From Candidatus Eisenbacteria bacterium RBG_16_71_46 (lineage in GTDB: Bacteria > Eisenbacteria > RBG-16-71-46), in NCBI GenBank assembly GCA_001780165.1, contig MFFQ01000079.1:2348-66347 (forward strand): a stretch of DNA of 64,000 nucleotides. Reading direction: 5' to 3'. Below, in pieces: positions 64 to 48,591 of the stretch; position 1 is the stretch's first letter; the number at the start of each line of letters is the position of its first letter. Under the pieces are notes generated by a model that ran no database searches, was not told the DNA's origin, and saw only the letters and a program-made list of their open reading frames with translations. The position numbers were made by a program, and so were the translations under genes.

Positions 64-945
64 ATGCTTCGTTCGCCGCGCTGGTTCCCCTACCAGCTGC
101 TGCTGCCCGCGATCGTGGTGATGCTCGCGGTGGTGCTGTTTCCGCTCCTCTACAACTTCTACCTCGCCTTTCGGAACATGAGCCTCTACCACTTCACGGA
201 CCACCGGTTCGTGGGGTTCGAGCAGTTCCGCACCCTGCTCACCGAGCCCGCGCTCTACGTGCTGCTCGGGAAATCGGTGGCATGGACCGTGGTCAACGTG
301 CTCTTTCACGTCGCGGTCGGGCTGTTTCTGGCGGTGGTGCTCGCCGGCCCGGTGCGGGGCCGGGCGTTCTATCGCACGCTGCTGATCCTGCCGTGGGCGA
401 TGCCGCAGTACATCTCCGCCCTCACCTGGCGGGGGATGTTCAACTACGAGTACGGCGCGGTGAATCTCATCCTCACGAGGCTCCTCCACCTGCCGGCGGT
501 GCCGTGGCTCACCGATCCGTTCTGGGCGTTCGTCGCGCCGATCATCGTGAACATCTGGCTCGGCTTCCCGTTCATGATGGTGGTGGCTCTGGGGGCGCTC
601 TCGGCGATCCCGCACGAGCTGTACGAGGCGGCCGACCTCGACGGGGCCAACGTCTGGCACAAGTTCCGCAACATCACGTGGCCGCAGATCCTGCCGGTGC
701 TCACCCCGGCGGTGCTGCTCGGCACGATCTGGACCTTCAACAACATGGTGGTCATCTGGCTGGTGTCGCGCGGCGGGCAGCCCGCGGATCAGACCCACAT
801 CATGGTGACCTACATCTACAAGGTGGCGTTCACCTACTACCGCTACTCCTACGCCGCCGCATTCTCCGTCATCGTGTTCCTGATCCTGCTCGGCTTCGTG
901 CTGCTGGTGCTGCGGCGGGCCGCCCCGCTGGAGGCGCGCTCGTGA
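64..945 (+). CDS. carbohydrate ABC transporter permease (MalF/UgpA type)
   Basis: The 293 aa ORF has multiple hydrophobic TM segments. The EAA-loop region EAADLDGANVWHKFRNITWPQILP is typical of binding-protein-dependent sugar permeases. Confidence 0.9.
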   Translation: MLRSPRWFPYQLLLPAIVVMLAVVLFPLLYNFYLAFRNMSLYHFTDHRFVGFEQFRTLLTEPALYVLLGKSVAWTVVNVLFHVAVGLFLAVVLAGPVRGRAFYRTLLILPWAMPQYISALTWRGMFNYEYGAVNLILTRLLHLPAVPWLTDPFWAFVAPIIVNIWLGFPFMMVVALGALSAIPHELYEAADLDGANVWHKFRNITWPQILPVLTPAVLLGTIWTFNNMVVIWLVSRGGQPADQTHIMVTYIYKVAFTYYRYSYAAAFSVIVFLILLGFVLLVLRRAAPLEARS

Positions 946-1787
946 CCGCTCCCCGCCGCCGGCGCCTGCGTCCGTTGACGCTCATGTCGCACGCGCTGCT
1001 CATCCTGTTCTCCTTCGCGACGCTCTATCCGATCCTCCAGATCGTCACCGTGTCGCTCCGGCCGTCCGACCAGCTCTACTCGACCTCGCTCGCGCTCGTG
1101 CCCAAGGGCGCGACGCTGCGCGCCTTCTACGTCATCCTCTTCGAGCGCGACTTCCTGGTGTGGATGCGCAACTCGCTGCTGGTGTCGTTCGCCGTGACGG
1201 TGTTCGGGGTGGCGCTGGCCTCGACCGCGGGCTACGCCTTCTCCCGCTACCGCTTCCCGGGCTGGACCGCGGGGCTCTATTCGTTCCTGCTCACCCAGCT
1301 GTTCCCGGCCACGATGCTCATGCTCCCGCTCTACGTCATGATGAAGGCGGTCGGCCTGCTCGACACCTTCACCGGCCTCGCCATCGCCTATACCGCCACC
1401 GCGCTGCCGTTCTCGGTGTGGACGATGCGCGGCTACTACGACACCATCCCCATCGAGCTGGAGCAGGCGGCGCTCATCGACGGCTGCGGGCCGTGGAGCG
1501 CGTTCACCCGCGTCACCTTCCCGCTCGCGGCTCCGGCCCTGGCGATCACCGCGCTGTTCTCGTTCATGAACGCGTGGTCCGAGTTCCTGGTGGCGCGGGT
1601 GATCGTCAACCGCCAGGCGCTCTACACCCTGCCGCTCGGACTCGAGAGCCTGGCCGGCCAGTTCCAGACCGAGTGGGCGAACTACGCCGCCGGCAGCCTG
1701 CTGGTGTGCGTGCCGGTGATGATCCTGTTCGTGGTGCTCAACCGCTGGCTGGTGTCGGGGCTGGCGCTCGGCGGCGTGAAGGGCTAA
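942..1787 (+). CDS. carbohydrate ABC transporter permease (MalG/UgpE type)
   Basis: An in-frame GTG at 942 overlaps the upstream stop (GTGA). The protein VTAPRRRRLRPLTLMSHALLILFSF... carries the EAA loop EQAALIDGCGPWSAFTRVTFPLAAP. The 5' part of track ORF 282..1787 is only an out-of-frame overlap of the previous gene. Confidence 0.9.
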   Translation: MTAPRRRRLRPLTLMSHALLILFSFATLYPILQIVTVSLRPSDQLYSTSLALVPKGATLRAFYVILFERDFLVWMRNSLLVSFAVTVFGVALASTAGYAFSRYRFPGWTAGLYSFLLTQLFPATMLMLPLYVMMKAVGLLDTFTGLAIAYTATALPFSVWTMRGYYDTIPIELEQAALIDGCGPWSAFTRVTFPLAAPALAITALFSFMNAWSEFLVARVIVNRQALYTLPLGLESLAGQFQTEWANYAAGSLLVCVPVMILFVVLNRWLVSGLALGGVKG

Positions 1788-3024: not shown

Positions 3025-5544
3025 TTACTGGGTCACCACCATGCGGCGCATCAGGCTTTCGTTGTCGCGCCTGAGCTCGTAGAAGTAGATCCCGCTGCGC
3101 ACCCGCTGCCCGGCGAGATCGCGTCCGTTCCACAGCGCCTCGTGCTGCCCCGCGGCCAGCTCGCCCTCCAGGAGCTTCGCCACGCGGCGCCCGCTGACGT
3201 CGTACACGCTGAGCGTGACGAAGCCGGACTGCTTGAGCACGAACCGGATCCTGGCGCTCGCGCCCGCAGGATTCGGGGCGTTCTGGAACAGCAGCCCGAA
3301 GCCCGGGATCGCGAGGTCTCTGGGCCCGATGTCCTCGACGCCCACCGGCTCGGTGCAGTAGTTCCACTGGCTCAGCACGCGCACCAGGGGGTTGCCGGTC
3401 GAATAGTTCACGTCATCGAGCGTGAAGCCGCGATTGCCCTCTCCCTCGCATTCGAACCCGCCGTTGGTCGGCCAGGCGTCGGACCAGTACTTGAACCCGA
3501 CGTTGAATTCGGTCGAATCCGGGAAGGTGACGGCGAGGGTGTAGACCAGATCGCCCGCCTGGGCGTCAGGCGCCACGCCGTCGTCCTTCATGATCCCGCC
3601 CGCTCCGGGGGGCGTGGCGAACGAGAGCGGCGCCCGATCGGCCATCAGCCCGACGGTGTCGGTCGGGAACGCGGACGGGTGAAGCAGCTTCGCGTCCACG
3701 CGGAAGATCACCGCGATCGCCTTGTCCGTCGTCGTACAGCGGTCGATGCCGCGCGCCGGCAGCGTGAGCGGGCCGAGCGTGCCTCCCACGATGTCGTACA
3801 ACGCGTCGTTGAGGAACACGTTGCGGTTGCCCTGGCCCAGGCACTCGATCACGCCGTTGAAGTCCACCTTCCAATCGACGTTCTTCGGCGTGCAGATCGG
3901 GAAGCGGACCACGGCCGTGTAGATCTTGTCGCCCGGTACGGCGTCCGGGGACACGCCGTTGTCGAGCATCGGTATTCCGGGCTGGGTGAAGGAGAGCGGG
4001 GCCTGGCTGCCGAGGAGCGTGATCACGTCGCTCCCGGTGGGATTGAACAGCGTGGCGTCCACCGTGAAGATGACGTCGATCGGATGCGTCGTGAAGTTCG
4101 CAGGATTGTCGTTGTTCCACGCCTCGTTGAGCACCACGCTTGCGCCGTTGTCGCTCGTCAGGTGGTAGGCCCGGTTGCTGCCGAGCGGCTCGTAGGTCGT
4201 GCACTTGTTGCTGAATTTCCACGCGAGGTCGGCCTCGCCCTTGCCCGTGCCGGCGTTCTTGGGCATGCAGAACGGCACCGTGACCGTGTAGATCGAGTCT
4301 GCGTTGGTGTCGTACATCAGCGCGTTGTCGCACAGCGTCGCGATCGTGAGCGGTATCAGGCTGCCCTCGATCGCGAACGAGTCGGTCACGGCGAACGATC
4401 CGTTGCACAGTCCGATGTGGAAGTCGCCGTTGAACGTGACCCGCTGAATGAAGAACGAGCCCACGTTGGTGGTCCCGTTGGCCACGATGGTGTTCGAGGG
4501 CGTGGCGAGGTCCTTCACGTTGGTCACGGTGATGTTGAAGAAGGAGGCGTTCGAGGTGATCGCGCTGTTCAGCGTGAGATGGACGACGTTGTGGGCCGAC
4601 ACGTCCCGGGTCGCGCCGGTGACGCTACGCGTCACCGGACCGCTGAAGGCGTAATTGCCGATGGTCTCGGCGGATGTCTGGTCCACGGGCTCGCTGAAGG
4701 TGATGTCCACCTTGTTGCTGCTCAACGAGAACGTCCGGTCACCGAGCAGCGGGAAGTCCACCGCGCAGGCGCCGGTGACCGTCGGCGGCGTGACGTCCTG
4801 GAAGCTCAGAATCGTGTAGTCGTTCATGCACGTCATCTGGACCACCGCCGTGGTGTCGAAAGTGGTCTGGCCGACGCGCGACATCTGCACGGCGTCGCTG
4901 CAGAAGGCGTCGAGCGGGCCCTTGGTGGTTCCCTCCTGGGTCACCCAGAATTCGACGCGCATCGTGGTGCCGACCCCGACCCCGAGGACCGACAACGGGA
5001 GCTTGAGCTCGCGGAAGTGGGTGCTGTCCACGATCCCGAGCCCGTTGGCGCCGGAGCCCCACGAGGGGTTCACCTGGGTCGAGGCGTTGTCCCACGCGGT
5101 GGTGCCCGCGTTCCACTTGTAGAGGATCTCGTAATTGAAGGTGTTGCAGCTCACCGGCGTGACGTCGTAGACGACGAAGTCGGGCTTGAACGGCACGTTC
5201 GTCCACCCGATCGAGCGACCGAACGGGTCGGTGGTACCTCCGCCCGCCGTCCCCACGTCGAATGCGAAGCCGAGGTTCATGTCGCAGAAACACGTGCTGT
5301 CGAACTCGACACCGACGTAGAGGAAGTTGTTGTCGTTGGTGATGTAGACGCGGCCGAGATTCATCGGCAGCGCCGCGGGCGAGCAGAAGGTCTGGGTGTC
5401 GGTGCCATCGTCGCCGAGCAGGTTGGCCGGGTTGAAGTCGCTCGGATGCCCGGTGAACGTCACGGTCTGCGACACGAAGGCGTGGGCCGCGGTCGCGCCC
5501 AGCAGCAGGGCCGATGCCAGAAGCAGGACTCGAAACGATCTCAT
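3025..5544 (-). CDS. large secreted protein with Ig-like domains and a T9SS-type/FlgD-Ig-like C-terminal domain
   Basis: The 839 aa ORF has the signal peptide MRSFRVLLLASALLLGATAAHA. The C-terminus is LFQNAPNPAGASARIRFVLKQSGFVTLSVYDVSGRRVAKLLEGELAAGQHEALWNGRDLAGQRVRSGIYFYELRR...MVVTQ, the classic Por-secretion type-A CTD pattern. The N-terminal block NNFLYVGVEFD resembles carbohydrate-binding (CBM9-like) modules. Confidence 0.85.
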   Translation of the reverse strand: MRSFRVLLLASALLLGATAAHAFVSQTVTFTGHPSDFNPANLLGDDGTDTQTFCSPAALPMNLGRVYITNDNNFLYVGVEFDSTCFCDMNLGFAFDVGTAGGGTTDPFGRSIGWTNVPFKPDFVVYDVTPVSCNTFNYEILYKWNAGTTAWDNASTQVNPSWGSGANGLGIVDSTHFRELKLPLSVLGVGVGTTMRVEFWVTQEGTTKGPLDAFCSDAVQMSRVGQTTFDTTAVVQMTCMNDYTILSFQDVTPPTVTGACAVDFPLLGDRTFSLSSNKVDITFSEPVDQTSAETIGNYAFSGPVTRSVTGATRDVSAHNVVHLTLNSAITSNASFFNITVTNVKDLATPSNTIVANGTTNVGSFFIQRVTFNGDFHIGLCNGSFAVTDSFAIEGSLIPLTIATLCDNALMYDTNADSIYTVTVPFCMPKNAGTGKGEADLAWKFSNKCTTYEPLGSNRAYHLTSDNGASVVLNEAWNNDNPANFTTHPIDVIFTVDATLFNPTGSDVITLLGSQAPLSFTQPGIPMLDNGVSPDAVPGDKIYTAVVRFPICTPKNVDWKVDFNGVIECLGQGNRNVFLNDALYDIVGGTLGPLTLPARGIDRCTTTDKAIAVIFRVDAKLLHPSAFPTDTVGLMADRAPLSFATPPGAGGIMKDDGVAPDAQAGDLVYTLAVTFPDSTEFNVGFKYWSDAWPTNGGFECEGEGNRGFTLDDVNYSTGNPLVRVLSQWNYCTEPVGVEDIGPRDLAIPGFGLLFQNAPNPAGASARIRFVLKQSGFVTLSVYDVSGRRVAKLLEGELAAGQHEALWNGRDLAGQRVRSGIYFYELRRDNESLMRRMVVTQ

Positions 5545-5840: not shown

Positions 5841-7124
5841 ATGACGCCTCGCCTCGCGTGGTGGGTTAGCGCCCTCCTTCTGCTCCATCTCGCAGCGCCG
5901 GTCACCGCGAGCACCGCGCGTGACCTGTCCGGCCGCATGCGGCTCGACGGCTTCACCGACGAATACACGGCCGGCGAAGTGGTGTTCGGCCGCAACGCGG
6001 CCGCCGGCAACGTTCCCGAGGAGGCGGACGACGATTCCAAGTGGGGCACGAACAACGACATCCGGCAGCTCCGCATCACCTGGGACGCGAAACACCTCTA
6101 CCTCGCGGGCGAAGGCAACACCTGGGACAACAACATGGTGCTGCTGCTCGACACCATCAAGGGTCACGGATTGCGCACCATGCGGACCCTCAACTCCTGG
6201 CGCCGCAATTTCACCTTCGACACCACGGGCTTCGGTGCGGGTCGCGCGCAGTTCATGCCGGATCTCTTCAGTGGCACCTGGGACGGCAACGTCGCGCCGC
6301 GGTTGCTGATCGTGCTCGACTCCACCACGGTGGACGACCAGGTCCCGGGAACGCTGTTCCAGGCCGCCGCGACGTTTCTCCGCGACCAGCCGAACCGTGC
6401 GATGGAATTGGTGATCCCGTGGCGCACGGTGTTCCTCGCCTCGGCGGGGTTCGGCACGCGGGACACGGTGATGACCGTGGGCGGGGTGCGCGACACCTTC
6501 CATCTCTTCCCCCCCGGCACCAGGATCCGCGTCGCCGGAGTGGTGACCGCGGGCGGGGACGGCAGCGGCGGACCCGACGCCGCGCCCGACAACACGCGCG
6601 GCATGTCGCAGGACTCCAACGCCGAGGAGATCATCGACAACTACGCCGAGATCGACCTCGACCGCGTGGATGACACCGGCGCCGGTCGCGGCGGGCCCGA
6701 CGGCGTCGCCGACTGGGGCATCGAGCCGAAGGAGCGCGTCTCCTTCCGCTACCCGCCGCCGATCCTGGGCCTGCGGTTCAGCCTGCAAGACGCGCGGCTC
6801 GACCGCCCCGCCTTCAAGCCCGATCTCGGCGACCGCATCCGCTTCGGGTTCACGCTCGCCCCGCGCCTCGATCCGAACCTGCAGATCGACCAGATCCGCA
6901 CCGTGGACGTGACGGCCAACGTGTTCGACATGAACGGGCGGTTCGTGAGGAACCTCTACATCGGCGACACCCGTCTGGCACTGTCGCCGCTGAGCTCGGA
7001 CCGCGACGTGTGGGACGGCCGCGACGAGCGAGGGATGCTGGTGACGCCGGGGATCTACATCCTGCGGCTGGTCATCGAGCCCAACCAGAGCCGGATCACG
7101 CGGGCGATGGTGGTCGTGCGATGA
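5841..7124 (+). CDS. secreted protein with a T9SS-type/FlgD-Ig-like C-terminal domain (first gene of the outer-membrane alpha-glucan operon)
   Basis: The 427 aa ORF has the signal peptide MTPRLAWWVSALLLLHLAAPVTAS. The C-terminus is VTANVFDMNGRFVRNLYIGD...VWDGRDERGMLVTPGIYILRLVIEPNQSRITRAMVVVR. Its stop overlaps the next start (ATGA). Confidence 0.85.
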   Translation: MTPRLAWWVSALLLLHLAAPVTASTARDLSGRMRLDGFTDEYTAGEVVFGRNAAAGNVPEEADDDSKWGTNNDIRQLRITWDAKHLYLAGEGNTWDNNMVLLLDTIKGHGLRTMRTLNSWRRNFTFDTTGFGAGRAQFMPDLFSGTWDGNVAPRLLIVLDSTTVDDQVPGTLFQAAATFLRDQPNRAMELVIPWRTVFLASAGFGTRDTVMTVGGVRDTFHLFPPGTRIRVAGVVTAGGDGSGGPDAAPDNTRGMSQDSNAEEIIDNYAEIDLDRVDDTGAGRGGPDGVADWGIEPKERVSFRYPPPILGLRFSLQDARLDRPAFKPDLGDRIRFGFTLAPRLDPNLQIDQIRTVDVTANVFDMNGRFVRNLYIGDTRLALSPLSSDRDVWDGRDERGMLVTPGIYILRLVIEPNQSRITRAMVVVR

Positions 7125-8092
7125 GACGCGTGGCGAAACTCGTGCGGGCTCGGAAGCCCGCGGCGCACGTCCTCCCGGCCCTCGCCGTCGCGCTGGCGTG
7201 CGCCGGGGCCGCCACGCCCGCCCGCGCCTACTTCGAGGAGACCGCGGTGGGCGCCCGGGTGCTGGCGCTCGGATTCTCGGCGCTGGCCGACGCCCACGAT
7301 GTCTCCGCGTACTACTGGAACCCCGCCGGCCTGGCCCGCCTGCGCGGCACGGAGCTGCTGCTGGACCTCGCCAAGCCATACGGCATATCGGAGCTCAACG
7401 AGGGCACGATCGCGGTCGGCACGCAGCGCTTCGGGACCGGGTGGGCGCTGGCCTGGCACCACCTCGGCATCACCAACGCCTATGGGGAGGAGCTGTTCAG
7501 CCTGGGGGCGGGCCGCCCGCTGATGACGTTCCCCGGCGGTCACGGCCTCTCCGGCGGCGCGACCTTCAAGTACGGGCGCATCGGCTTCGTGCCCTTCGAC
7601 GACCCGGTGGACGGGTTCCCCGTGGACTACGGGCACCAGGCCAAGGGCTCCCTCGATGCCGCGATCACCTGGAGCACGCCGTGGCGCGTGGATGTCTCCT
7701 GGGTCGCGCGCGACCTGCTGCAGCCGCGCTACCAGTTCGTCGAGGGCACCGGCGGCGACCGGCTGGTCACCCGCCAGCAGCTCGCCGGGGCGTTCCGCTG
7801 GAACCGCGAGTCCACGGTCACCGCGAGCTGGAGCCAGGTGGACGGCGGGCCGATCTCGTTCAACGCCGGGATGGAGGTCACCTTCTACGACGTCTTCGCG
7901 ATCCGCTCGGGGCTCACGAACCTCGCCGTGATCTACGCGTCCACCGGCTCGCCCAACGACTTCCAGTACACCGGCGGCTTCGGCGTGTACCACAAGGGCT
8001 ACTTCATCGACGCGGCGGCGTTCACGAATCGCGACCTCGGCGCCTCCTACCGGATGACGCTACGATTCCCCGTCTTCGGCGGGTCGCGATGA
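7121..8092 (+). CDS. outer-membrane beta-barrel protein, PorV/PorQ/UPF0164-like N-terminal motif
   Basis: ATG at 7121 overlaps the upstream TGA. There is a signal peptide, followed by AYFEETAVGARVLALGFSALADAHDVSAYYWNPAGLA. This matches the G-A-R..A.G...A.AD..SA..WNPAG motif I associate with PorV/PorQ-type FadL-like barrels. The sequence shows an alternating beta-strand pattern. Confidence 0.65.
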   Translation: MRRVAKLVRARKPAAHVLPALAVALACAGAATPARAYFEETAVGARVLALGFSALADAHDVSAYYWNPAGLARLRGTELLLDLAKPYGISELNEGTIAVGTQRFGTGWALAWHHLGITNAYGEELFSLGAGRPLMTFPGGHGLSGGATFKYGRIGFVPFDDPVDGFPVDYGHQAKGSLDAAITWSTPWRVDVSWVARDLLQPRYQFVEGTGGDRLVTRQQLAGAFRWNRESTVTASWSQVDGGPISFNAGMEVTFYDVFAIRSGLTNLAVIYASTGSPNDFQYTGGFGVYHKGYFIDAAAFTNRDLGASYRMTLRFPVFGGSR

Positions 8093-9645
8093 ACCGCCCG
8101 CCGCCTCTCGCCCTGGCGGCCCTGGCCGTCAGCCTGCTCGCCGCGGGCCCGGCGGGAGCGAGCACCAAGATCAACGGCGAGTACCAGCTCATGCTCGACC
8201 TGCGCAAGGACCAGCGTGTCTTCCCGTGGGACTGGTTCACCAATTCCAACGACAATTACACGCCGGCCAAGCTGCGCATCTTCTCGCAACCGGCCCCCGG
8301 ACTCGAAGCGTTCTTCGAGGCGGAGGCGCTGTGGAACTCCAACGACAACGGCGCCGCGCGACCCGAGTTCCACTACGGCACCGCGCACCTCCGCCTGCGG
8401 CGCGAGTCGGGCGGCCGCGGCTTCGACAGCTACGTGTTCTCGCGCCAGGATCGGTTCTGGGTGGATAGCTACCTGCTGCGGCTGGTCTATGGGCGCGGCG
8501 GCTCGCAGGGCGTGCGCGTGGACACCTGGGGCTTCTTCGGCCTCAACACGGCCTTCATCGTCTCGGACTACAGCGACCAGTTCAATCCCACGAGCTTCCC
8601 CGCCGGCCTGCCCCGCGACTCGGTCGCGCGGCAGGCGGTCAACCGCACGGATGACGCCTACATCGTGCGGCTCCGCCGCGAGTTCACCCGCGACAAGCGC
8701 CTGCGCCTCGGCTTCACCATGAACCGCTTCGAGGCCAACCAGGGCGACAGCCTGAACCACCAGAGGACCCACGTCGCGGTGTACGGCTACGACGCCCGCT
8801 ACCGCGTGCTCGGCACGGACGTCTCGCTCGAGTACGCCGAGAGCCAGTCCGAGCGCCCGCCGCTCAAGTTCCCCGGGACGTCGAACGAGATCGCGCTCTT
8901 CAAACGCTCGACCGGCATCGGGCTGCGGCGCAACGCCGTGGTCCAGGCGGAGATCCGCAGTGTCCGGCTCGGAACGTCCAGGGCCGGATTCCTGAACGTC
9001 ACCCCGATCTGGTGGCAGCGGGGCTCGGAATGGCAGAACGCCATCGGCGGCCCCAACCGCGATGAAACCGGATTCCTGCTCAACACCGTCTACCTGCTGC
9101 CCCAGCGCGCGGTCACCTACACGAACAACTACCGCTGGTACGGCAACAACGCGACGACGCATTACGACGATCGCGAGGTCTACAACGAGATCTACGTCGA
9201 GTTCGTCAACGGCTTCACCGGCAAGGCCTACTACCGCAATCACGAGACCTTTCGCGAGAACGCGGGACTGCGCATCCGTGACGTGTTCAACGAGTGGTTC
9301 GCGGAGCTGCAGGTGGAGAGCCGTCTCGCCAAGCTGGTCGTCGAGGCCAAGTCGAAGGACATCGGGCGCCCCGAGCACAAGCAGCTCTATTCGGTGGAGA
9401 CCGCAGTGAACCTCACGGACAAGCTCAAGGTCTACAACCGCTTCACCTTCGGCAACGACGCCAGCATCCTGCGCAAGGGCATCTTCAGCCAGCTCCAGTT
9501 CCGGCCCGCCGGAAACACCGAGATGTACCTTCAGTACGGTCCCGACTACATCGGCGGCGGTTCCGTCCCCGTGGACGAGGGGAATCTACAGGGCAGCGGG
9601 GACCAGGCCGACATCGTCAAGTTCATCATCAAGGGGAACTTCTAG
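8089..9645 (+). CDS. predicted outer-membrane beta-barrel/porin-like protein, unknown family
   Basis: ATG at 8089 overlaps the upstream stop (ATGA). The signal peptide is MNRPPPLALAALAVSLLAAGPAGAS. The protein is Tyr/Arg/Asn-rich with alternating strands and ends ...VKFIIKGNF with a terminal Phe, the OMP C-terminal signature. The 5' part of track ORF 7198..9645 is an out-of-frame overlap. Confidence 0.75.
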   Translation: MNRPPPLALAALAVSLLAAGPAGASTKINGEYQLMLDLRKDQRVFPWDWFTNSNDNYTPAKLRIFSQPAPGLEAFFEAEALWNSNDNGAARPEFHYGTAHLRLRRESGGRGFDSYVFSRQDRFWVDSYLLRLVYGRGGSQGVRVDTWGFFGLNTAFIVSDYSDQFNPTSFPAGLPRDSVARQAVNRTDDAYIVRLRREFTRDKRLRLGFTMNRFEANQGDSLNHQRTHVAVYGYDARYRVLGTDVSLEYAESQSERPPLKFPGTSNEIALFKRSTGIGLRRNAVVQAEIRSVRLGTSRAGFLNVTPIWWQRGSEWQNAIGGPNRDETGFLLNTVYLLPQRAVTYTNNYRWYGNNATTHYDDREVYNEIYVEFVNGFTGKAYYRNHETFRENAGLRIRDVFNEWFAELQVESRLAKLVVEAKSKDIGRPEHKQLYSVETAVNLTDKLKVYNRFTFGNDASILRKGIFSQLQFRPAGNTEMYLQYGPDYIGGGSVPVDEGNLQGSGDQADIVKFIIKGNF

Positions 9646-11940
9646 ATGCGCGCGAATCCAGCCGCCGCTCCGGCGGCACGGCGCCCTCACCGGCGCCTCG
9701 TGGCCCTGGCCGCCGCCGCGTGGTTGCTCGCCGCATCTTCGGTGGGCGCGGCACCCCAGAAGGCGGATGGCGGCATCCGCTTCACCTACGCGGACGCTTC
9801 GGCGCAGGCGGTGTTCTGGGCCGGGGAGTTCAACAGCTGGTCGCCGACGGCCACGCCGATGACGCGGGACGCGAACGGGTTGTGGAGCGCCGTCGTACCC
9901 CTGCCGCCCGGCACCCACGAGTACAAGTTCGTCGTGGACGGGCAGTGGTTCGCCGACCCCGAGAACCCAGTCACCGCGGGAGACTTCGGCAACAGCGTCG
10001 TCGTGGTCTCGCCCGAGGGCGACCTGGTCGCCGCGGCAGCCACCTCGAACACCCCCTACAGCCCGCAGATCATGATAGGCGGTCGGATCATCGGCCTGTT
10101 CCAGGATACTCACAGCGACGAGGACGGCCGATTCGCGCTGCGGCGCCCCAATCTGGACATCGATCTCGGCTTCGACATCCGGATCTCGGACGTGCTGAAG
10201 GCGCATTGGCTCATGAACATCAACAGCGAAAAGGAGGACGTGCAGGACTTCCGCAGCCGGCTCAACTTCGACCGCGGCTCGCTGCTGTTCACCAAGCCGA
10301 AGCTCCAGATCCTCGCCTACGACAACGAGGCGGCGGGCACCTGGGACGATCCGCTGCACCTGCTCGGCGACGTGGGGATTTTCCACCACGCGTACGGCTA
10401 TCAGCGCCAGGGCTTCAAGCTTTCGAGCCAGTATGGCGGCTTCGACACCGAGTTCCACTACGCGGACAACTTCAACGCCGGCGGCACCACCTACCCGGCG
10501 TTCATCGTCGGCGATCCCACCAATCCGCGCTTCGTCTTCGAGAGCGATCCGGTGCGCAAGTCCATCGACCTGCTGAAGACGGAGCGCGACGGCGGCGGCT
10601 ACCGCCTGGTCGGCGACCAGTTGAGCAAGGTGTCGAGCATGGACCGCAGCGACGCCAACGCCGACATGTTCGCCTTCCGGTCCTCGCGCCAAGTGCTGGA
10701 CGGGGTTTCGGTCGGCGGCCTGTTCCGGAACGACCGCGGCTTCAACCTCGGGCAACTCGTGCTGTCCAAGGTGACCGGGGACAGCACGCTGCAGATCCTG
10801 AGCGGGCGCTACGAGCAGGAGTGGCTCGGCGGCGGCGGGCAGGTGTCGTGGACCCCGACCACGGGCGTGCGGCTCTTCGCCGAGTACCTGCGTGGCACGC
10901 TGCGCATGACCCTGCTCAGCGACGCCACCACCACGGACTGGAAGCTGTCCGCGATCGGCGCGCTCGCCCCCGGAACCGCCACCGCCCTGGGCGGCGTCAC
11001 CGCCAACGGCGACCATCGCACGCTCGACGACAGCGCGCGGCTCAAGGCCGGCGGCTCCTGGAGCTTCGCCCAGGGCGACATCGTGCTGCGGGCCGACGTC
11101 GAGCACCAGACCCACTCCTACGCCGCCTGGACCCAGCCGCCGACGGCGCCCGCCGGCCTGCCGCCCACCGACGACATCATCTTCGAGAACGCCGAGTATC
11201 AGCGGAAGAACTACGTCGACGCCGGCCGCACGATCGACAACGCGATGACCATCACCCGCGTCGGCTGGGAGCGGAACTGGCGTCACTACCTCGAACGCGA
11301 GGTTCGCACCGGGCTCCACGTCGAGGTGACGCACTTCGAATACGACCCGCGCACGAACTGGCAGTACCAGCTCTGGTTCCCCACCGGGAACTTCTGGCTC
11401 GAAACCGGCGAGCACGTCGTCACCACCGACCGGCTGACGATGCTCGGCGAGCGCAACGTGATCCGCGTGAAGCCGAGCCTTGCGGTGCCCCTGCTCGCCA
11501 GCCGCGCGATGATCCTGGAGTACCTCGGGACGCTGTCGGGGGTGACCCTCGGGCGTCAGCCCAAATACGCCGAGTCCATCCTCCAGTTCGGGTTCGACCT
11601 CTCGCGGGACCTGCGGTTCAACACCGACACCCGATGGGCCAAGTACGACGACCCCGAACTCTCGCTGGCCAAGGGATACGTCAGCCACTTCTTCGAGCTG
11701 GAGTACCGCTTCGCGCCGACCGCGAGCGTGGCCTTCTCGTGGGGGGTGGATCCCTGGGTGATCGATCCCCTGACCAACGAATATGCCTACATCGGCCGCG
11801 ATGTTTACCTCATCGACAGGAACGCCAACGGTTTCTTCGCGGAAACCAACTACCTGAGCCTCGCGCCGATGATCGCCGCGTCCGAGAAGAATCTGCGCAA
11901 CGAGCGGCGCCTGCAGGTCGAGGCGATCGTCCGCTTCTAG
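9646..11940 (+). CDS. CBM48 (glycogen-binding, AMPK-beta-like) module fused to a ~640 aa predicted outer-membrane beta-barrel
   Basis: The start follows the upstream TAG directly. After the signal peptide comes IRFTYADASAQAVFWAGEFNSWSPTATPMTRDANGLWSAVVPLPPGTHEYKFVVDGQWFADPENP, the CBM48/E-set pattern. The rest is a long alternating-strand region ending ...RRLQVEAIVRF with a terminal Phe. Confidence 0.8.
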   Translation: MRANPAAAPAARRPHRRLVALAAAAWLLAASSVGAAPQKADGGIRFTYADASAQAVFWAGEFNSWSPTATPMTRDANGLWSAVVPLPPGTHEYKFVVDGQWFADPENPVTAGDFGNSVVVVSPEGDLVAAAATSNTPYSPQIMIGGRIIGLFQDTHSDEDGRFALRRPNLDIDLGFDIRISDVLKAHWLMNINSEKEDVQDFRSRLNFDRGSLLFTKPKLQILAYDNEAAGTWDDPLHLLGDVGIFHHAYGYQRQGFKLSSQYGGFDTEFHYADNFNAGGTTYPAFIVGDPTNPRFVFESDPVRKSIDLLKTERDGGGYRLVGDQLSKVSSMDRSDANADMFAFRSSRQVLDGVSVGGLFRNDRGFNLGQLVLSKVTGDSTLQILSGRYEQEWLGGGGQVSWTPTTGVRLFAEYLRGTLRMTLLSDATTTDWKLSAIGALAPGTATALGGVTANGDHRTLDDSARLKAGGSWSFAQGDIVLRADVEHQTHSYAAWTQPPTAPAGLPPTDDIIFENAEYQRKNYVDAGRTIDNAMTITRVGWERNWRHYLEREVRTGLHVEVTHFEYDPRTNWQYQLWFPTGNFWLETGEHVVTTDRLTMLGERNVIRVKPSLAVPLLASRAMILEYLGTLSGVTLGRQPKYAESILQFGFDLSRDLRFNTDTRWAKYDDPELSLAKGYVSHFFELEYRFAPTASVAFSWGVDPWVIDPLTNEYAYIGRDVYLIDRNANGFFAETNYLSLAPMIAASEKNLRNERRLQVEAIVRF

Positions 11941-11956: not shown

Positions 11957-12352
11957 ATGCGACGCACCGTGGGGATGGCGCTGGCCGCAGCGCTCGTGCT
12001 GGCCGGTTGCGGTTCCCTCAACTTCATCAAGCGCCGCCTGCCACCCCCAACCGAAGGCCCCGCGGGGGTGACCTTCCGGTTCGACGCGCCGTCCGCCCAG
12101 GTGGTCCAGCTGGCGGGAAACTGGCCGGAGAACAACTGGCTGCGAGGCCAGGCCCAGACCGGGAGCTTCCTGGTCGGCGAGATGTCAGATCCGGACGGCG
12201 ACGGGATCTGGGAGCGCACGGAGAAGCTCCCGCCTGGCCGCTACGAGTACAAGTTCGTCATCGACCGGGTGAACTGGCGTTACGACCCCAACAACTCGAA
12301 CCGTACCGACGACGGCTACGGCGGCTTCAACTCGCTGCTCGACGTCCAGTGA
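11957..12352 (+). CDS. lipoprotein consisting of one CBM48-like glycogen-binding module
   Basis: A GGAGGAG RBS precedes the start. The lipobox is MALAAALVLAGC. The module reads VTFRFDAPSAQVVQLAGNWPENNW...GIWERTEKLPPGRYEYKFVIDRVNWRYDPNN...DDGYGGFNSLL. Confidence 0.85.
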   Translation: MRRTVGMALAAALVLAGCGSLNFIKRRLPPPTEGPAGVTFRFDAPSAQVVQLAGNWPENNWLRGQAQTGSFLVGEMSDPDGDGIWERTEKLPPGRYEYKFVIDRVNWRYDPNNSNRTDDGYGGFNSLLDVQ

Positions 12353-13161
12353 CCGAGACCTCGATCCGAAGCGCGGGACGCGCACCCCTCCGCCGCGCGC
12401 GCGCCGCGGGGGCGGTGCTCGCGCTGCTGGTCGTGCTGGCGCCCGGTTGCGGCCGCAACCGGGTCGCGGACCTCCTGGTCCCGACCGGGATCCGGCCGCG
12501 GCCCGCGATCGGCTCCGGGGCGATCTCGGTGCGGCTGTTCTACGATCCCGTGCGCTACCCGGATCTCACGCTGCCGCCGTTCCCGCCCACCACCGTGAAG
12601 CTCCAGTTGGCGGGCATCGCCTTGGACTCGACGACGCTGGACGGCAGCACGAACGTGGTGACGTTCGATTCCCTGCAGGCGGGCAGCTACCTGATGACGT
12701 CGAGCGCGTTCCTGTTCTTCTCCGCGAGCCTCGGACCCATCGCGGTGACGGATCAGCTGGTGGACGCGGGCGACGACACCCTGACCCTGAACCCGGCGAA
12801 GGTCCGGAGCACCGTCCACCTCGTGGGAGACTTCAACGGATTTCCGAGCGACTTCCCCGACTCCATCTCGATGGAGCAGAACAGCGTCGGGGTGTGGACC
12901 TACCCCAACATCGACTACCCGGCGCAGACCATCCAACCCGGAACCTACCGGCTGCGCTTCGTCACCGACTTCAGCTACGACAACCCCACCGACTACGGGG
13001 GCAGTGAGGCCGTGACCTACACCGTGCCGGTCCTCAACGCTACCACACGGCTCGTCTCGGGCCCGGGAACCGACCTCAAGATCCGGGTGGTCACGACCGG
13101 CCCATACCGCTTCACGCTCGACGAGCGCCGCCAGACCTTCAGCGTGGAGCCGATTCCGTAG
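12349..13161 (+). CDS. lipoprotein with an Ig-like N-domain and a CBM48-like C-domain
   Basis: GTG at 12349 overlaps the upstream stop (GTGA). The lipobox is LLVVLAPGC. The C-terminal half reads VHLVGDFNGFPSDFPDSISMEQNSVGVWTY...GTYRLRFVTDFSYDNPTDYGG. The upstream part of track ORF 12007..13161 is an out-of-frame overlap. Confidence 0.7.
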   Translation: MTETSIRSAGRAPLRRARAAGAVLALLVVLAPGCGRNRVADLLVPTGIRPRPAIGSGAISVRLFYDPVRYPDLTLPPFPPTTVKLQLAGIALDSTTLDGSTNVVTFDSLQAGSYLMTSSAFLFFSASLGPIAVTDQLVDAGDDTLTLNPAKVRSTVHLVGDFNGFPSDFPDSISMEQNSVGVWTYPNIDYPAQTIQPGTYRLRFVTDFSYDNPTDYGGSEAVTYTVPVLNATTRLVSGPGTDLKIRVVTTGPYRFTLDERRQTFSVEPIP

Positions 13162-13193: not shown

Positions 13194-13988
13194 ATGACCC
13201 ATCGCATCGCCTTCGCAAACCTCCTGGCCCTCGGGACCGTGCTCCTCGCGGGCTGTGCCGGCGGCTGGCGCCACGGAGCCGCGCCCGGCGCCGCGACCTC
13301 CCCCGCCGGCGCTCCCGCGGCTCACGCCTCCGCGCCCGCGCCGGCCACGCGTGGGCCGGTTGCAGGTGGTTCGGGGGTCACCTTCACCTACCAGGGCCCG
13401 GCCAACACGGTGGCGCTGGCCGGCGACTTCAACGACTGGTCCACCTCGGCCGACGCCATGACCAAGGGGGCCGCCGACACCTGGACCCTCACCAAGAAGC
13501 TCGAGCCGGGCCGCCACATGTACAAGTTCGTGATCGACGGTGGCACCTGGAAGGAGGACCCTGGTGCCGTCGAGTTCGCCGACGACGGCTACGGCGGGAA
13601 GAACTCGGTCGTGGTGGTGGGTGCCGGCACGGCCGGCGGCGGCGCCGCCCCCGCAGCGCCTGCGCCCGCCGCCCCCGCGGCACCTGCGCCGGCCGCTCCC
13701 GCAGGCGCCGGCAAGGCCCCTGCCCAGACCGCGGAGGGCGTGGTCTTCACCTTCGCCGGCAGCGCCAATGCGGTCAACCTCGCAGGGGACTTCAACGCCT
13801 GGTCCACCACCGCCGACCCCATGACCAAACAGGCCGACGGCACCTGGACCCTCACCAAGAAGCTCGAGCCCGGCAGCTACGAGTACAAGTTCGTGATCAA
13901 CGGAACGACCTGGAAGCAGGACGAGGCCAATCCCGAAAGCAAGAGCGATCCCTATGGCGGCAAGAACTCAGTGGTCACCGTGAAATAG
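13194..13988 (+). CDS. lipoprotein with two tandem CBM48-like glycogen-binding modules joined by an Ala/Pro linker
   Basis: A GAGGAG RBS precedes the start and the lipobox is LLAGC. Two copies of V.FT..G.AN.V.LAGDFN.WST.AD.MTK..DGTWTLTKKLEPG.Y.YKFVI.G.TWK.D...........YGGKNSVV are separated by AAPAAPAPAAPAAPAPAAPAGAG. Confidence 0.9.
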   Translation: MTHRIAFANLLALGTVLLAGCAGGWRHGAAPGAATSPAGAPAAHASAPAPATRGPVAGGSGVTFTYQGPANTVALAGDFNDWSTSADAMTKGAADTWTLTKKLEPGRHMYKFVIDGGTWKEDPGAVEFADDGYGGKNSVVVVGAGTAGGGAAPAAPAPAAPAAPAPAAPAGAGKAPAQTAEGVVFTFAGSANAVNLAGDFNAWSTTADPMTKQADGTWTLTKKLEPGSYEYKFVINGTTWKQDEANPESKSDPYGGKNSVVTVK

Positions 13989-14059: not shown

Positions 14060-16729
<2,670 letters not shown>

Positions 16730-16741
16730 ACCGCGACCCGA

Positions 16742-17845
<1,104 letters not shown>

Positions 17846-36100: not shown

Positions 36101-36191
36101 GCGCGGACACCGCGCCGATCACGATCACGCACAGGATCATCATCACCGCCGTCACCGGCCGGCGCAGGCTCCAGCGCGGGAGGTTCACCAC
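33156..36191 (-). CDS. RND efflux transporter permease (HAE1 family, MdtC/AcrB-like)
   Basis: The 1011 aa ORF begins MVNLPRWSLRRPVTAVMMILCVIVIGAVS...LPDVDFPGLDIEIPYPNA. It has 12 TM segments and two large periplasmic loops. The conserved TM4 region MMGLMLAVGLLVDNAVVVLE is present. Confidence 0.95.
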   Translation of the reverse strand: MVNLPRWSLRRPVTAVMMILCVIVIGAVSAPRLPLAFLPDVDFPGLDIEIPYPNALPAQVEEEITRPAEEALATLSRVRAIHSWSSPNSANIYVQFDWGEDVEPLRVEAREKLERIRDQLPADVDRIRVNSFRSSDIPVLECRISATRDLSQSYELLDRHVADPLRRVPGVAKVELYGVEPPEIRIDFRLDALRRHGVDAEVVLARLDAANHSVSAGQIRRPGETMPLRIVNQFASLDDIESFPVGARGLGLADVARVAYAEPDLDYGRHLDRTRAVGLNVIKESGANTVDVATRARRVLTEMKRDPLLEGIQVLTFTDQAEEIQNSLRGLMQSGLVGAVLATGVLFFFLRRLTATLVVALAIPVSLLAACALLFFTGRSLNILSMMGLMLAVGLLVDNAVVVLESIERLRHKGRGRLRAALEGSREVLPAVITSTATSVIVFLPLVLGGRTEITTWIGEVGRTIIFTLGCSLLLSLTAIPLAMGRVLPAGVSPRIGAVEWLAARYHVLLDWTLRHRPLTLGAGVLLFAVSVAAFIPVDKSAFTGTRVEAVQIRYEFADNLNYREVERYVSRVEDWIQDRRDSLHVKSTYSYFTNNMAITRAYLAAGWADDDGAQQVRKMLRDGLPSLPGLKLSLRGDDDNSGPSRLGVRLFGDPGPRLDDLAAEVRRRLTLVSGLTDVELGGQKGRQEVQVAVRGDRAARHGLTTAGVAQAVALFFRGRPLARYRGPEGEVQITARLANEDRERLDRLRDLPLGGADGQVVPLAAVADFRTVETPASIQRQQRRSVVTVAGNYAASQGGQVRKAATQQLKAMNFPPGYSWSFGMGLEEESQTQQEMLVNLLLALVLVYLVMAALFESLLHPFAIMFALPFAFVGIAWVCLLTGSPFNLMAQIGLLILVGIVVNNGVVLLYHVHQLRGRGLGREQAVLEAARDRLRPILMTTTTTILGLLPLALGQNRVGDVLYFPLARTVIGGLASSTLLTLILVPCLYTALEDGQRLIARVWRQGPRAA

Positions 36192-36258
36192 GGCGGGCTC
36201 CCGTCGCGGGCGGCACCCACGCCACGGGCCGCGCTTCCGCCGCCGTCCCGCGCCCCGC

Positions 36259-39417: not shown

Positions 39418-39478
39418 GGGTTCCTCCCCGGGAGGCGGCCCCGCGCGGCGCCCGGCGCCCGCGCGGCCGCGGTGGTCG

Positions 39479-40591: not shown

Positions 40592-40844
40592 GACCGGCGC
40601 GCGCTCCCGATTCCGGGCGCCCGGGCGGCTCCGAAGCGGGTCGAGTCCAGCGGGCGGCGGCGCGCCGGCCGATGTCGAACCCGTCCCCCGGGCACGACCG
40701 GGGGGGTCGCGGGAGCGGGTCCTGGTGATTACGCGGCGGCGCGGACGAGAGTTTCACCCCGGCCTGTCATCGCCGCAAGCCCGGGATCGGCAGAGCCAGG
40801 GCGCCCGCCGGCCCGGCGCCCCGGGCGTGACCCCGATCTCGGGG

Positions 40845-48505: not shown

Positions 48506-48591
48506 GACGGCTTCCTCCCCGGGACCATCGCGACCTCACGAAGCACCAATGCGCGGCCGCGCGGTGAATTTCCCTTAGGATGGGCGGGACC

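What the first reader, a model, noticed from the sequence alone, without database searches (positions are those of the whole stretch)
9646..11940. A carbohydrate-binding module fused directly to a large outer-membrane barrel
Residues ~45-125 form a clear CBM48/AMPK-beta-type module (IRFTYADASAQAVFWAGEFNSWSP...GTHEYKFVVDGQWFADPENP). The remaining ~640 aa have an amphipathic beta-strand periodicity and the OMP terminal motif ...AIVRF.

A single polypeptide combining a glycogen-binding module with a transport-sized barrel would join the roles played by a surface glycan-binding protein and a porin or TonB-dependent transporter in known systems. I am not aware of a characterised example.
Basis: partly seen in the sequence, partly recalled or inferred. 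Interest (0 to 1): 0.7.

Follow-up and report, generated by a model that had tools for sequence, protein, structure and literature searches.

The report
Starch-binding module fused to outer-membrane barrel
This gene encodes a glycogen/starch-binding module joined to a very large outer-membrane barrel, and it sits at the centre of a starch-use operon conserved across four little-known bacterial phyla, so it looks like an uncharacterised way of getting starch fragments across the outer membrane.

Summary
ORF 9646-11940 (+) encodes a 764-aa protein with four parts:
- a Sec signal peptide
- a CBM48/AMPK-beta-type module (Pfam E=1e-14, residues 46-121) whose glucan-binding Trp/Lys/Trp residues are conserved
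- a conserved 19-residue linker
- about 26 antiparallel strands ending in ...AIVRF

The AlphaFold2 model has pLDDT 90. All top Foldseek hits are large outer-membrane barrels, none of them close.

A barrel-only profile finds only 249 relatives among 1.84 billion proteins. Of 66 distant full-length relatives, 65 carry CBM48 (one to three copies). No full-length stand-alone barrel was found among those checked.

The gene sits in a conserved cassette: a secreted surface protein, a small FadL/PorP-like barrel, a second large barrel, this protein, and a CBM48 lipoprotein. GH13 or GH57 amylases and a MalK-type ABC importer lie nearby. The cassette occurs in Eisenbacteria, Krumholzibacteria, Cloacimonadota and Marinimicrobia.

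An alpha-glucan role is well supported, but loop-length parity places the N-terminal module on the periplasmic side, not the cell surface. The best reading is a TonB-independent alpha-glucan uptake channel with a tethered periplasmic capture module. No characterised precedent was found.

The parts
9646..9750 (+). Sec signal peptide of the target protein g4 (residues 1-35; Arg-rich n-region, LVALAAAAWLLAASS core, cleavage probably after VGA)
   Evidence: Read directly from the sequence. AlphaFold2 predicts a helix at 19-29 with low pLDDT. Ala35 is at least 90% conserved. There is no lipobox cysteine, and the protein has no Cys at all.
9757..10008 (+). CBM48 / AMPK-beta-type glycogen-binding module (residues 38-121)
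   Evidence: Pfam PF16561 E=1e-14 and PF02922 E=1.2e-9. PDB AMPK beta1/beta2 glycogen-binding domains at 5e-14 to 1e-15. W65, K94 and W101 align with the FNNW, YKF and DGQW motifs of AMPK beta1 and are invariant or nearly invariant in 77 homologues. This is the most conserved part of the protein, with mean identity 0.76.
10009..10065 (+). Conserved linker (residues 122-140, '...AAATSNTPYSPQI')
   Evidence: Mean column identity 0.69 (consensus ATSNTxYSPKI). pLDDT is only 56 for residues 131-140. Its function is unexplained.
10066..11937 (+). Large outer-membrane beta-barrel, about 26 wall strands (residues 141-764). It has long conserved loops at 227-254, 566-603 and 700-754, and a C-terminal beta-signal RLQVEAIVRF.
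   Evidence: AlphaFold2 pLDDT mostly above 90 with DSSP strands. Foldseek hits are TonB-dependent transporters, LptD and PapC at E~1e-8 but TM only 0.21-0.35. Strand, loop and parity analysis. Amphipathicity. No Pfam, NCBIfam or PDB sequence match.
5841..7124 (+). g1: 427-aa secreted protein with a FlgD-Ig / type IX-secretion-like C-terminal domain; first gene of the conserved cassette
   Evidence: Orthologues lie in the same position in 26 of 30 loci; the exceptions are contigs cut short. The Cloacimonadota orthologue hits FlgD_ig at 7e-8 and CHU_C at 0.0025. The window copy shows only weak FlgD similarity.
7121..8092 (+). g2: 323-aa small outer-membrane barrel of the FadL/TraF_2/PorP-SprF type
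   Evidence: Among 16 orthologues, 9 hit TraF_2, 5 hit FadL and 2 hit PorP_SprF. Its start overlaps the g1 stop by 4 nt.
8089..9645 (+). g3: 518-aa second large outer-membrane barrel (about 24-26 strands, ends ...KFIIKGNF); it abuts g4 with no gap
   Evidence: AlphaFold2 pLDDT 85.2, pTM 0.76. Foldseek finds outer-membrane barrels, best TMq 0.51 to the FimD usher. No Pfam hit. Not a detectable paralogue of the g4 barrel: hhalign probability 8.6%.
11957..12352 (+). g5: 131-aa lipoprotein with a CBM48-like module and a conserved post-Cys tether LNFIKRRLPPP
   Evidence: Pfam AMPK1_CBM 5.4e-7. It is the best-conserved cassette gene at 45-78% identity and always lies directly after g4. Lipobox and tether alignment.
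12349..13161 (+). g6: 270-aa putative lipoprotein, variable, no Pfam hit
   Evidence: Orthologues carry CarboxypepD_reg or X25-like hits.
13194..13988 (+). g7: 264-aa lipoprotein with two CBM48 modules
   Evidence: Pfam AMPK1_CBM 3.4e-26, two stretches. LAGC lipobox.
14060..16729 (+). g8: 889-aa GH13 alpha-amylase/neopullulanase-like enzyme with two N-terminal CBM48 modules and a type I signal peptide
   Evidence: Pfam Alpha-amylase 7.1e-60, AMPK1_CBM 1e-20 (two stretches), Alpha-amylase_N and DUF3459. The sequence shows no lipobox or C-terminal sorting domain.
16742..17845 (-). MalK-type ABC ATPase
   Evidence: Pfam ABC_tran, OB_MalK and TOBE_2.
64..1787 (+). Two ABC sugar-permease genes (64-945 and 942-1787)
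   Evidence: Pfam BPD_transp_1 at 9.7e-16 and 3.2e-14.

Best explanation
g4 is an outer-membrane component of a dedicated alpha-glucan (starch/glycogen/maltodextrin) uptake apparatus found in FCB-group candidate phyla.

Proposed mechanism:
1. Secreted, surface-anchored proteins bind and nick alpha-glucan outside the cell. These are g1 held by the PorP/FadL-like g2, plus type IX-type amylases encoded nearby.
2. The fragments cross the outer membrane through the large plug-less barrel of g4, possibly working together with the neighbouring barrel g3.
3. The CBM48 module hangs from the periplasmic rim of the barrel on a short tether and captures the incoming chain.
4. Capture prevents back-diffusion (a binding ratchet) and hands the chain to the CBM48-bearing periplasmic GH13 enzyme.
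5. A MalFGK-type ABC importer takes up the products.

Shown by the analyses:
- the domain architecture
- the barrel prediction
- conservation of the glucan-binding residues
- the universality of the fusion
- the conserved alpha-glucan operon

Inferred:
- the channel function
- the periplasmic location of the module
- independence from TonB
- the ratchet role
For: Architecture:
- CBM48 scores E=1e-14. Binding-site W65/K94/W101 align to AMPK beta1 and are invariant or nearly so.
- The barrel model has pLDDT 90.3 and all top Foldseek hits are large outer-membrane barrels.
- The terminal ...AIVRF is conserved.

Fusion is obligatory:
- 118 of the 120 close homologues listed carry CBM48 Pfam domains; the two without are short (628 and 646 aa).
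- 65 of 66 distant full-length barrel homologues (about 20% identity) also carry it.
- Copy number is 1-3. This argues for a free tethered module rather than a fixed plug.

Context:
- g1-g2-g3-g4-g5 occur in the same order in every one of 30 loci that is long enough. The pattern also holds in more distant Krumholzibacteria-type loci.
- The cassette is accompanied by GH13 or GH57 enzymes in most loci whose flanks extend far enough, and in several by CBM20 proteins, MalK and sugar ABC genes.
- The genes overlap or abut, which indicates an operon.

Topology:
- With 26 wall strands, connections after odd strands total 231 residues and include every loop of 13 residues or more except one 17-residue turn (493-509).
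- Connections after even strands total 64 residues, and 10 of 12 are 6 residues or shorter.
- By the general rule for outer-membrane barrels (short periplasmic turns, long external loops), strand 1 starts in the periplasm.

Other points:
- No Plug or TonB_dep_Rec hit at E<=1.
- GH13 g8 has a plain signal peptide and its own CBM48 modules, so CBM48 modules plausibly work in the periplasm here.
- A flexible periplasmic Ig-like N-terminal domain on a glycan-import barrel has a precedent in the SusC N-terminal extension (PMC7782687).
Against: - Model coordinates and PAE could not be inspected. The position of the CBM48 rests only on loop-length parity and general topology rules.
- 11 of 26 strands lack a clearly hydrophobic face.
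- The linker is strongly conserved yet poorly modelled, which a simple flexible tether does not explain.
- A second large barrel (g3) is always present. It could be the real channel.
- The gene order (barrel, lipoprotein, lipoprotein, lipoprotein, GH13) mirrors susCDEFG, where the lipoproteins are surface-exposed. That would favour surface roles for CBM48 modules in general.
- Three long, highly conserved loops (227-254, 566-603, 700-754) could fill the lumen.
- There are no experimental data for any family member.
Confidence: 0.45

Rival explanations
1. The CBM48 is displayed on the cell surface, with its linker threading the barrel lumen. One polypeptide then acts both as surface glucan-binding protein and as channel.
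For: - The 19-residue linker is long enough to span a barrel, and it is conserved but poorly modelled.
- The gene order resembles susCDEFG, whose binding proteins are on the surface.
- N-terminal passengers exported through C-terminal barrels do exist (type Va autotransporters; established knowledge).
Against: - Loop-parity topology puts the start of strand 1 in the periplasm.
- There is no autotransporter domain hit, and those barrels have 12 strands rather than about 26.
- Family members with two or three tandem CBM48 modules would need up to about 400 residues exported through their own lumen.
- Surface binding roles are already covered by g1 and the type IX-type proteins in the cassette.
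Confidence: 0.2
2. g4 is not a channel. It is a membrane scaffold that, together with g2, g3 and g5, anchors and organises an outer-membrane amylolytic complex. Transport occurs through g3 or an unlinked porin.
For: - Three barrels and a highly conserved lipoprotein are strictly co-inherited, which suggests a multi-protein complex.
- Long conserved loops could occlude the lumen.
- 11 of 26 strands are rather polar on both faces, which is compatible with protein-protein interfaces.
Against: - A barrel of about 26 strands is far larger than is needed for anchoring.
- The most conserved elements are the CBM48 binding site and loops rich in conserved aromatic residues (five in loop 566-603), as expected for a sugar path.
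- No other candidate channel apart from g3 is conserved in the loci.
Confidence: 0.15
3. The CBM48 acts as a gate or plug. It docks into the periplasmic mouth or lumen of the barrel and opens on binding substrate, giving a TonB-independent analogue of a transporter plug.
For: - The module is attached at the periplasmic end by a short conserved linker.
- Beta-sandwich plugs in barrels of about 24 strands exist in PapC/FimD ushers, which appear among the Foldseek hits.
Against: - CBM48 copy number varies from 1 to 3.
- The linker has low pLDDT.
- The canonical glucan-binding residues are conserved. This fits a free binding module better than a structural plug.
Confidence: 0.1
4. The protein exports a self-made alpha-glucan (capsule or exopolysaccharide), and the periplasmic CBM48 feeds the polymer into the barrel, as AlgK/AlgE or BcsC do for other polymers.
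For: A periplasmic binding domain fused to a barrel is typical of polysaccharide exporters (established knowledge). AlgE appears among the weak Foldseek hits for g3.
Against: The conserved neighbours are hydrolases (GH13, GH57), CBM-bearing binding proteins and a MalK-type importer. No conserved synthase or polymerase was seen in the cassette neighbourhoods examined.
Confidence: 0.03

Closest known systems
SusC/SusD-type glycan importers of Bacteroidota (starch utilisation system; SusC N-terminal extension)
   Same: - Both are outer-membrane barrels at the head of a glycan-utilisation operon, followed by lipoproteins and a GH13 enzyme.
- Both lie in the FCB lineage.
- A small, flexible, Ig-like N-terminal domain precedes the barrel (the SusC extension is about 9 kDa, invisible in crystals and essential; PMC7782687).
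   Different: - g4 has no Plug or TonB_dep_Rec domain and no recognisable TonB box.
- It has about 26 strands rather than 22.
- No SusD-like lipoprotein is in the cassette.
- The N-terminal domain is a bona fide CBM48 with conserved glucan-binding residues.
- A second large barrel and a FadL/PorP-like barrel are obligatory partners.
Maltoporin LamB with periplasmic MalE/MalS (Enterobacteria) and the TonB-dependent maltodextrin transporter MalA of Caulobacter
   Same: All provide dedicated outer-membrane passage for alpha-1,4-glucan oligomers, linked to a MalFGK-type importer and a periplasmic amylase. In the LamB system, periplasmic binding drives net uptake (established knowledge; MalA is cited in PMC6851124).
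   Different: - g4 has no LamB Pfam hit.
- LamB is an 18-strand trimer with no fused binding module.
- MalA is a plugged TonB-dependent transporter.
- In g4 the binding module is covalently attached to the barrel.
LptD/LptE (architecture only)
   Same: - An N-terminal periplasmic beta-sandwich domain is followed by a barrel of about 26 strands.
- Both are associated with a small dedicated lipoprotein.
- LptD appears among the Foldseek hits (rank 40).
   Different: - g4 has no LptD or OstA Pfam hit, and the TM-score is only 0.23.
- The genomic context is alpha-glucan catabolism, not lipopolysaccharide biogenesis.
- The N-terminal domain is a CBM48, not a lipid-binding jellyroll.
Type B CTD cargo anchored by PorP/SprF-like barrels (type IX secretion)
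   Same: The adjacent pair g1 (FlgD-Ig/CHU_C-like C-terminal domain) and g2 (FadL/TraF_2/PorP-like barrel) resembles the pairing of cargo with its neighbouring PorP-like anchor described in PMC9143113.
   Different: This concerns the neighbours, not g4 itself. The Pfam hits for g2 are borderline, and the window copy has none at E<=0.01.
CBM9-plus-DUF5916 proteins (recalled from memory, not verified here)
   Same: As I recall, Pfam lists proteins in which a family-9 carbohydrate-binding-like domain precedes a large uncharacterised domain (DUF5916) that is probably an outer-membrane barrel. That would be another uncharacterised CBM-barrel fusion.
   Different: g4 has no DUF5916 or CBM9 hit at E<=1. 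No paper mentions DUF5916. I could not retrieve a DUF5916 member to compare.

Membership tests
CBM48 / AMPK-beta glycogen-binding module (Pfam PF02922, PF16561) | Profile score above the curated threshold | tested here: met
   PF16561 scores 54.9 bits against a cut-off of 26.8. PF02922 scores 38.8 bits against 22.4. PDB AMPK beta glycogen-binding domains score 1e-15.
CBM48 / AMPK-beta glycogen-binding module (Pfam PF02922, PF16561) | Beta-sandwich fold | tested here: met
   AlphaFold2 predicts strands at 38-40, 43-49, 56-60, 79-84, 89-97, 100-102 and 116-121 with pLDDT about 90. Only the secondary-structure string was available, not coordinates.
CBM48 / AMPK-beta glycogen-binding module (Pfam PF02922, PF16561) | Conserved glucan-contacting Trp/Lys/Trp (AMPK beta1 W100, K126, W133; residue roles recalled from the beta-cyclodextrin complex literature) | tested here: met
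   W65, K94 and W101 align with the FNNW, YKF and DGQW motifs. W65 and K94 are invariant and W101 is at least 90% conserved in 77 sequences.
CBM48 / AMPK-beta glycogen-binding module (Pfam PF02922, PF16561) | Actual binding of alpha-glucan | not testable with these tools
   Needs ITC or affinity-gel assays with the recombinant module.
Outer-membrane beta-barrel protein (BAM substrate) | Sec signal peptide without a lipobox | tested here: met
   The sequence shows an Arg-rich n-region, a hydrophobic core and a VGA|A site. There is no Cys. Judged by inspection only, as no signal-peptide predictor was available.
Outer-membrane beta-barrel protein (BAM substrate) | C-terminal beta-signal ending in an aromatic residue | tested here: met
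   ...RLQVEAIVRF, with F764 at least 90% conserved.
Outer-membrane beta-barrel protein (BAM substrate) | Closed antiparallel meander barrel | tested here: met
   About 26 long strands joined by 2-6-residue turns. The top 50 listed Foldseek hits are almost all outer-membrane barrels at probability 1.00, though TM is only 0.21-0.35. Barrel closure itself was not inspected because no coordinates were available.
TonB-dependent transporter / SusC | Plug domain (PF07715) and TonB_dep_Rec barrel (PF00593) | tested here: not met
   No hit at E<=1 in Pfam or NCBIfam. The PDB profile search matches only the CBM48 part.
TonB-dependent transporter / SusC | TonB box ahead of a plug | tested here: inconclusive
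   There is no plug. The conserved linker ATSNTxYSPKI does not resemble classical TonB boxes, but a partner-binding strand cannot be excluded.
TonB-dependent transporter / SusC | SusD-like lipoprotein partner | tested here: not met
   No SusD family hit in any cassette gene, here or in related loci.
Maltoporin (LamB, PF02264) | LamB profile match and an 18-strand barrel | tested here: not met
   No Pfam hit. About 26 strands.
LptD | LptD/OstA profile match | tested here: not met
   No Pfam hit. Foldseek TM 0.23 to 9fz5_A.
Type V autotransporter | 12-strand autotransporter barrel (PF03797) with a helical linker in the pore | tested here: not met
   No Pfam hit. About 26 strands, and the linker is not helical.

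The most novel reading that the evidence does not exclude
Several FCB candidate phyla that appear to lack a described SusCD-type starch system use a previously unrecognised, TonB-independent, multi-barrel outer-membrane machine. It comprises a FadL/PorP-like barrel, two barrels of about 24-26 strands and a conserved CBM48 lipoprotein. One to three CBM48 modules, covalently tethered at the periplasmic mouth, act as a binding ratchet that pulls long alpha-glucan chains through a plug-less channel without energy input from the inner membrane.
Probability: 0.25. Interest if true: 0.85.

Novelty: new variant of a known kind. Interest (0 to 1): 0.68.

Why it matters
Two routes are known for glycans crossing the Gram-negative outer membrane: small specific porins (LamB, ChiP, CymA) and TonB-dependent transporters (SusC, MalA).

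This family has a carbohydrate-binding module fused to a plug-less barrel of about 26 strands. It is always accompanied by a second large barrel, a small FadL/PorP-like barrel and a CBM48 lipoprotein. That would be a third design.

It is conserved across at least four uncultured phyla that are common in soils, sediments, digesters and the ocean. If it is an uptake machine, three things follow:
- It would explain how these organisms feed on starch and glycogen.
- It would give a natural test case for passive, ratchet-driven polymer import.
- It would add two unannotated barrel families (g3 and g4) and a diagnostic operon signature for genome annotation.

Tried and rejected
Searches that found nothing for the barrel:
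- Pfam and NCBIfam on residues 125-764 gave no hit.
- A PDB sequence-profile search matched only the CBM48 part.
- Foldseek against the PDB returned only generic large barrels with TM<=0.35, so there is no solved relative.

Families tested and not met (see membership table):
- TonB-dependent transporter
- LamB
- LptD
- autotransporter

Other negative results:
- g3 as a paralogue of the g4 barrel: BLASTP E=0.56 and hhalign probability 8.6%, so rejected.
- Stand-alone barrel homologues: a barrel-only profile against 1.84 billion representatives found 249 hits. Of the 66 distant full-length ones checked, 65 carry CBM48, so none was found among those checked.
- Nine literature searches (Eisenbacteria, CBM48 with outer membrane or porin, the NCBI product names, DUF5916, and two on comparator systems) found no description of this protein or operon. 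The Fibrobacter paper that matched the terms concerns GH9-CBM48 cellulases and is not relevant.
- No tRNA or Rfam element in the window.

Technical problems:
- My first estimate of the g3 start (8212) was wrong. The correct start is 8089.
- Model coordinates and PAE are not exposed by the tools, so the position of the CBM48 relative to the barrel could not be read directly.
- Coevolution analysis was considered and dropped because too few sequences are available (about 250 for 764 columns).
Full report
1. THE OBSERVATION

ORF 9646-11940 on the + strand encodes 764 residues with exactly the sequence quoted. Codon-position GC (0.63/0.46/0.92) and the frame plot show that it is a real gene in a ~70% GC genome.

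Pfam places AMPK1_CBM (PF16561, E=1e-14, 54.9 bits, cut-off 26.8) at residues 46-121, with CBM_48 (PF02922, E=1.2e-9) over the same region. A profile of the family hits the AMPK beta1/beta2 glycogen-binding domains of the PDB at about 1e-15, followed by the CBM48 modules of pullulanases and branching enzymes.

In the pairwise alignment with AMPK beta1 (1z0n), W65, K94 and W101 of the window protein fall on the FNNW, YKF and DGQW motifs. From my knowledge of the AMPK beta1/cyclodextrin structure, these carry the sugar-contacting W100, K126 and W133. W65 and K94 are invariant and W101 is at least 90% conserved in 77 homologues.

The rest of the protein (125-764) has no Pfam, NCBIfam or PDB sequence match.

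2. THE BARREL

An AlphaFold2 model built on 77 homologues has mean pLDDT 90.3 and pTM 0.80. It shows:
- a beta-sandwich at 38-121
- a linker at 122-140 with pLDDT 56 for residues 131-140
- an uninterrupted series of long antiparallel strands from 141 to 763, with three short helices at 717-751 before the last strand

Foldseek against the PDB returns 359 hits at E<=0.001. The top 50 are almost all large outer-membrane barrels: TonB-dependent transporters such as OprC, PiuA, Fiu and FhuA, plus LptD and the PapC usher. TM-scores are only 0.21-0.35. So the fold class is clear, but there is no close solved relative.

Merging the DSSP elements gives 26 wall strands. The protein has no cysteine and ends in RLQVEAIVRF. 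15 of 26 strands have one hydrophobic and one polar face; the other 11 are less clear.

3. WHERE THE MODULE SITS

Coordinates and PAE are not exposed by the tools, so I used the general rule that outer-membrane barrels have short periplasmic turns and long external loops.
- Connections after odd-numbered strands total 231 residues. They include every loop of 13 residues or more (13, 28, 50, 38 and 55 residues) apart from one 17-residue turn at 493-509, and most of the length variation between homologues.
- Connections after even-numbered strands total 64 residues. Ten of twelve are 6 residues or shorter, and most are invariant in length.

This parity means strand 1 runs from the periplasm outward and both termini are periplasmic. 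The linker and CBM48 therefore emerge at the periplasmic rim. This is an inference, not an observation.

Two further facts argue that the module is a free, tethered binder rather than a fixed plug:
- The linker is modelled with low confidence.
- Family members carry one, two (P0218, Krumholzibacteria-type) or three (P0212) tandem CBM48 modules before the barrel.

The linker sequence (consensus ATSNTxYSPKI) is nevertheless strongly conserved. I cannot explain this. It may bind a partner.

4. THE FAMILY

The close search found 142 full-length homologues. Of the 120 listed, 118 carry CBM48 Pfam domains; the two without are short (628 and 646 aa). The few that carry names are called 'glycogen-binding domain-containing protein' or 'isoamylase early set domain-containing protein' from Candidatus Eisenbacteria.

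A barrel-only profile (A2) searched against 1.84 billion representative proteins found only 249 hits at E<=0.001. Of 66 distant full-length hits (about 20% identity), 65 carry AMPK1_CBM. No full-length stand-alone barrel turned up among those checked, so the fusion appears to define the family.

Named sources are Eisenbacteria, Krumholzibacteria, Cloacimonadota and Neomarinimicrobiota, plus one record labelled Gemmatimonadota. All belong to the FCB group.

5. THE NEIGHBOURHOOD

Around the target, genes on the + strand overlap or abut:
- g1, 5841-7124: a secreted protein whose orthologues carry a FlgD-Ig/CHU_C-type C-terminal domain.
- g2, 7121-8092: a small barrel. Of 16 orthologues, 9 hit TraF_2, 5 hit FadL and 2 hit PorP_SprF.
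- g3, 8089-9645: a second large barrel. AlphaFold2 pLDDT is 85 and the best Foldseek TMq is 0.51 to the FimD usher. It is not a detectable paralogue of g4.
- g4: the target.
- g5, 11957-12352: a 131-aa CBM48 lipoprotein.
- g6, 12349-13161: a variable lipoprotein.
- g7, 13194-13988: a lipoprotein with two CBM48 modules.
- g8, 14060-16729: a GH13 amylase/neopullulanase-like enzyme with two CBM48 modules and a plain signal peptide.

Flanking genes are a MalK-type ATPase, an esterase with CBM20, two sugar ABC permeases and a large protein with a type IX-type C-terminal domain.

In 30 related loci the order g1-g2-g3-g4-g5 is identical wherever the contig is long enough, including low-GC Cloacimonadota and a Marinimicrobia contig. 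More distant loci keep g2-g3-g4-g5, or at least g3-g4-g5, next to GH57, GH13, CBM20, MalK and sugar-binding proteins.

g5 is the best-conserved gene (45-78% identity). Directly after its lipid-anchored Cys it carries a tether, LNFIKRRLPPP, that is conserved across phyla.

6. MECHANISM

The shown facts are these:
- a glucan-binding module with an intact binding site
- a covalent link to a very large plug-less barrel
- obligatory co-inheritance with two more barrels and a CBM48 lipoprotein
- a constant association with alpha-glucan hydrolases and a maltose-type importer

From these I infer an outer-membrane uptake apparatus for alpha-glucan fragments, working as follows:
1. Surface capture and nicking by g1/g2 and secreted amylases. 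The pairing of cargo with a neighbouring PorP-like anchor is described in PMC9143113.
2. Passage through g4, perhaps together with g3.
3. Capture by the tethered periplasmic CBM48, preventing back-diffusion.
4. Hand-over to the CBM48-bearing GH13 enzyme.
5. Uptake by the ABC importer.

The conserved aromatic-rich loops, notably 566-603 with five conserved aromatic residues, are candidates for a sugar path. That is speculation.

Rivals are surface display of the module, a pure scaffold role, a gating plug, and polymer export. They are weighed in the structured fields.

7. COMPARISON WITH KNOWN SYSTEMS

In role, the system works like Sus/LamB-type alpha-glucan uptake. The operon layout echoes susCDEFG. 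The flexible N-terminal beta-sandwich recalls the essential but unexplained N-terminal extension of SusC (PMC7782687).

It is not a member of the TonB-dependent/SusC, LamB, LptD or autotransporter families. Their defining domains were searched for and not found, and the strand number differs.

A possibly similar uncharacterised fusion (CBM9 plus DUF5916) is recalled from memory only and could not be checked.

8. VERDICT

The barrel and the alpha-glucan role hold up, but the module is probably periplasmic and does not replace separate binding lipoproteins.

No experimental characterisation of this protein, its barrel family or the cassette was found in nine literature searches. I rate it a new variant of a known kind (outer-membrane glycan uptake). 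It deserves structural and biochemical follow-up.

Noticed in passing
window 8089-9645 (+): g3 is a 518-aa protein with no Pfam family. It is confidently predicted as a second large outer-membrane barrel (about 24-26 strands; best Foldseek TMq 0.51 to the FimD usher). It abuts the target with no gap and is always co-inherited with it.
   Followed up: partly
window 11957-12352 (+); L001-L030: The small CBM48 lipoprotein g5 is the best-conserved gene of the cassette at 45-78% identity. Directly after its lipobox Cys it carries a tether, LNFIKRRLPPP, that is nearly invariant across three candidate phyla. This suggests a docking peptide.
   Followed up: partly
window 5841-8092 (+): g1 (secreted protein with a FlgD-Ig/CHU_C-like C-terminal domain in orthologues) and g2 (FadL/TraF_2/PorP-like small barrel) look like a type IX secretion cargo with its neighbouring PorP-like anchor, outside the Bacteroidota (concept in PMC9143113).
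   Followed up: partly
proteins P0218 (823 aa) and P0212 (922 aa), distant family members: The barrel family includes versions with two or three tandem CBM48 modules ahead of the barrel.
   Followed up: yes
window 59636-62224 (-): An 862-aa protein with two PDZ domains fused to an Omp85/ShlB-type C-terminal barrel. This is another fusion of soluble domains to an outer-membrane barrel in the same window.
   Followed up: no
window 54596-57082 (+) and 3025-5544 (-): A multicopper oxidase and an 839-aa protein of unknown function both end in FlgD-Ig/Por_Secre_tail-type C-terminal domains. This suggests the organism uses a type IX-like secretion route.
   Followed up: no
window 33156-40753 (-): Two tandem AcrB-type RND pump genes with a HlyD-type membrane-fusion protein.
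   Followed up: no
window 47189-48535 (-): A DinB_2 plus FGE-sulfatase domain protein, the domain pair typical of EgtB-like sulfoxide synthases.
   Followed up: no
window 10009-10065 (+): The linker between CBM48 and barrel is strongly conserved in sequence (mean identity 0.69) but has the lowest model confidence inside the mature protein (pLDDT 56). This is unexplained.
   Followed up: partly
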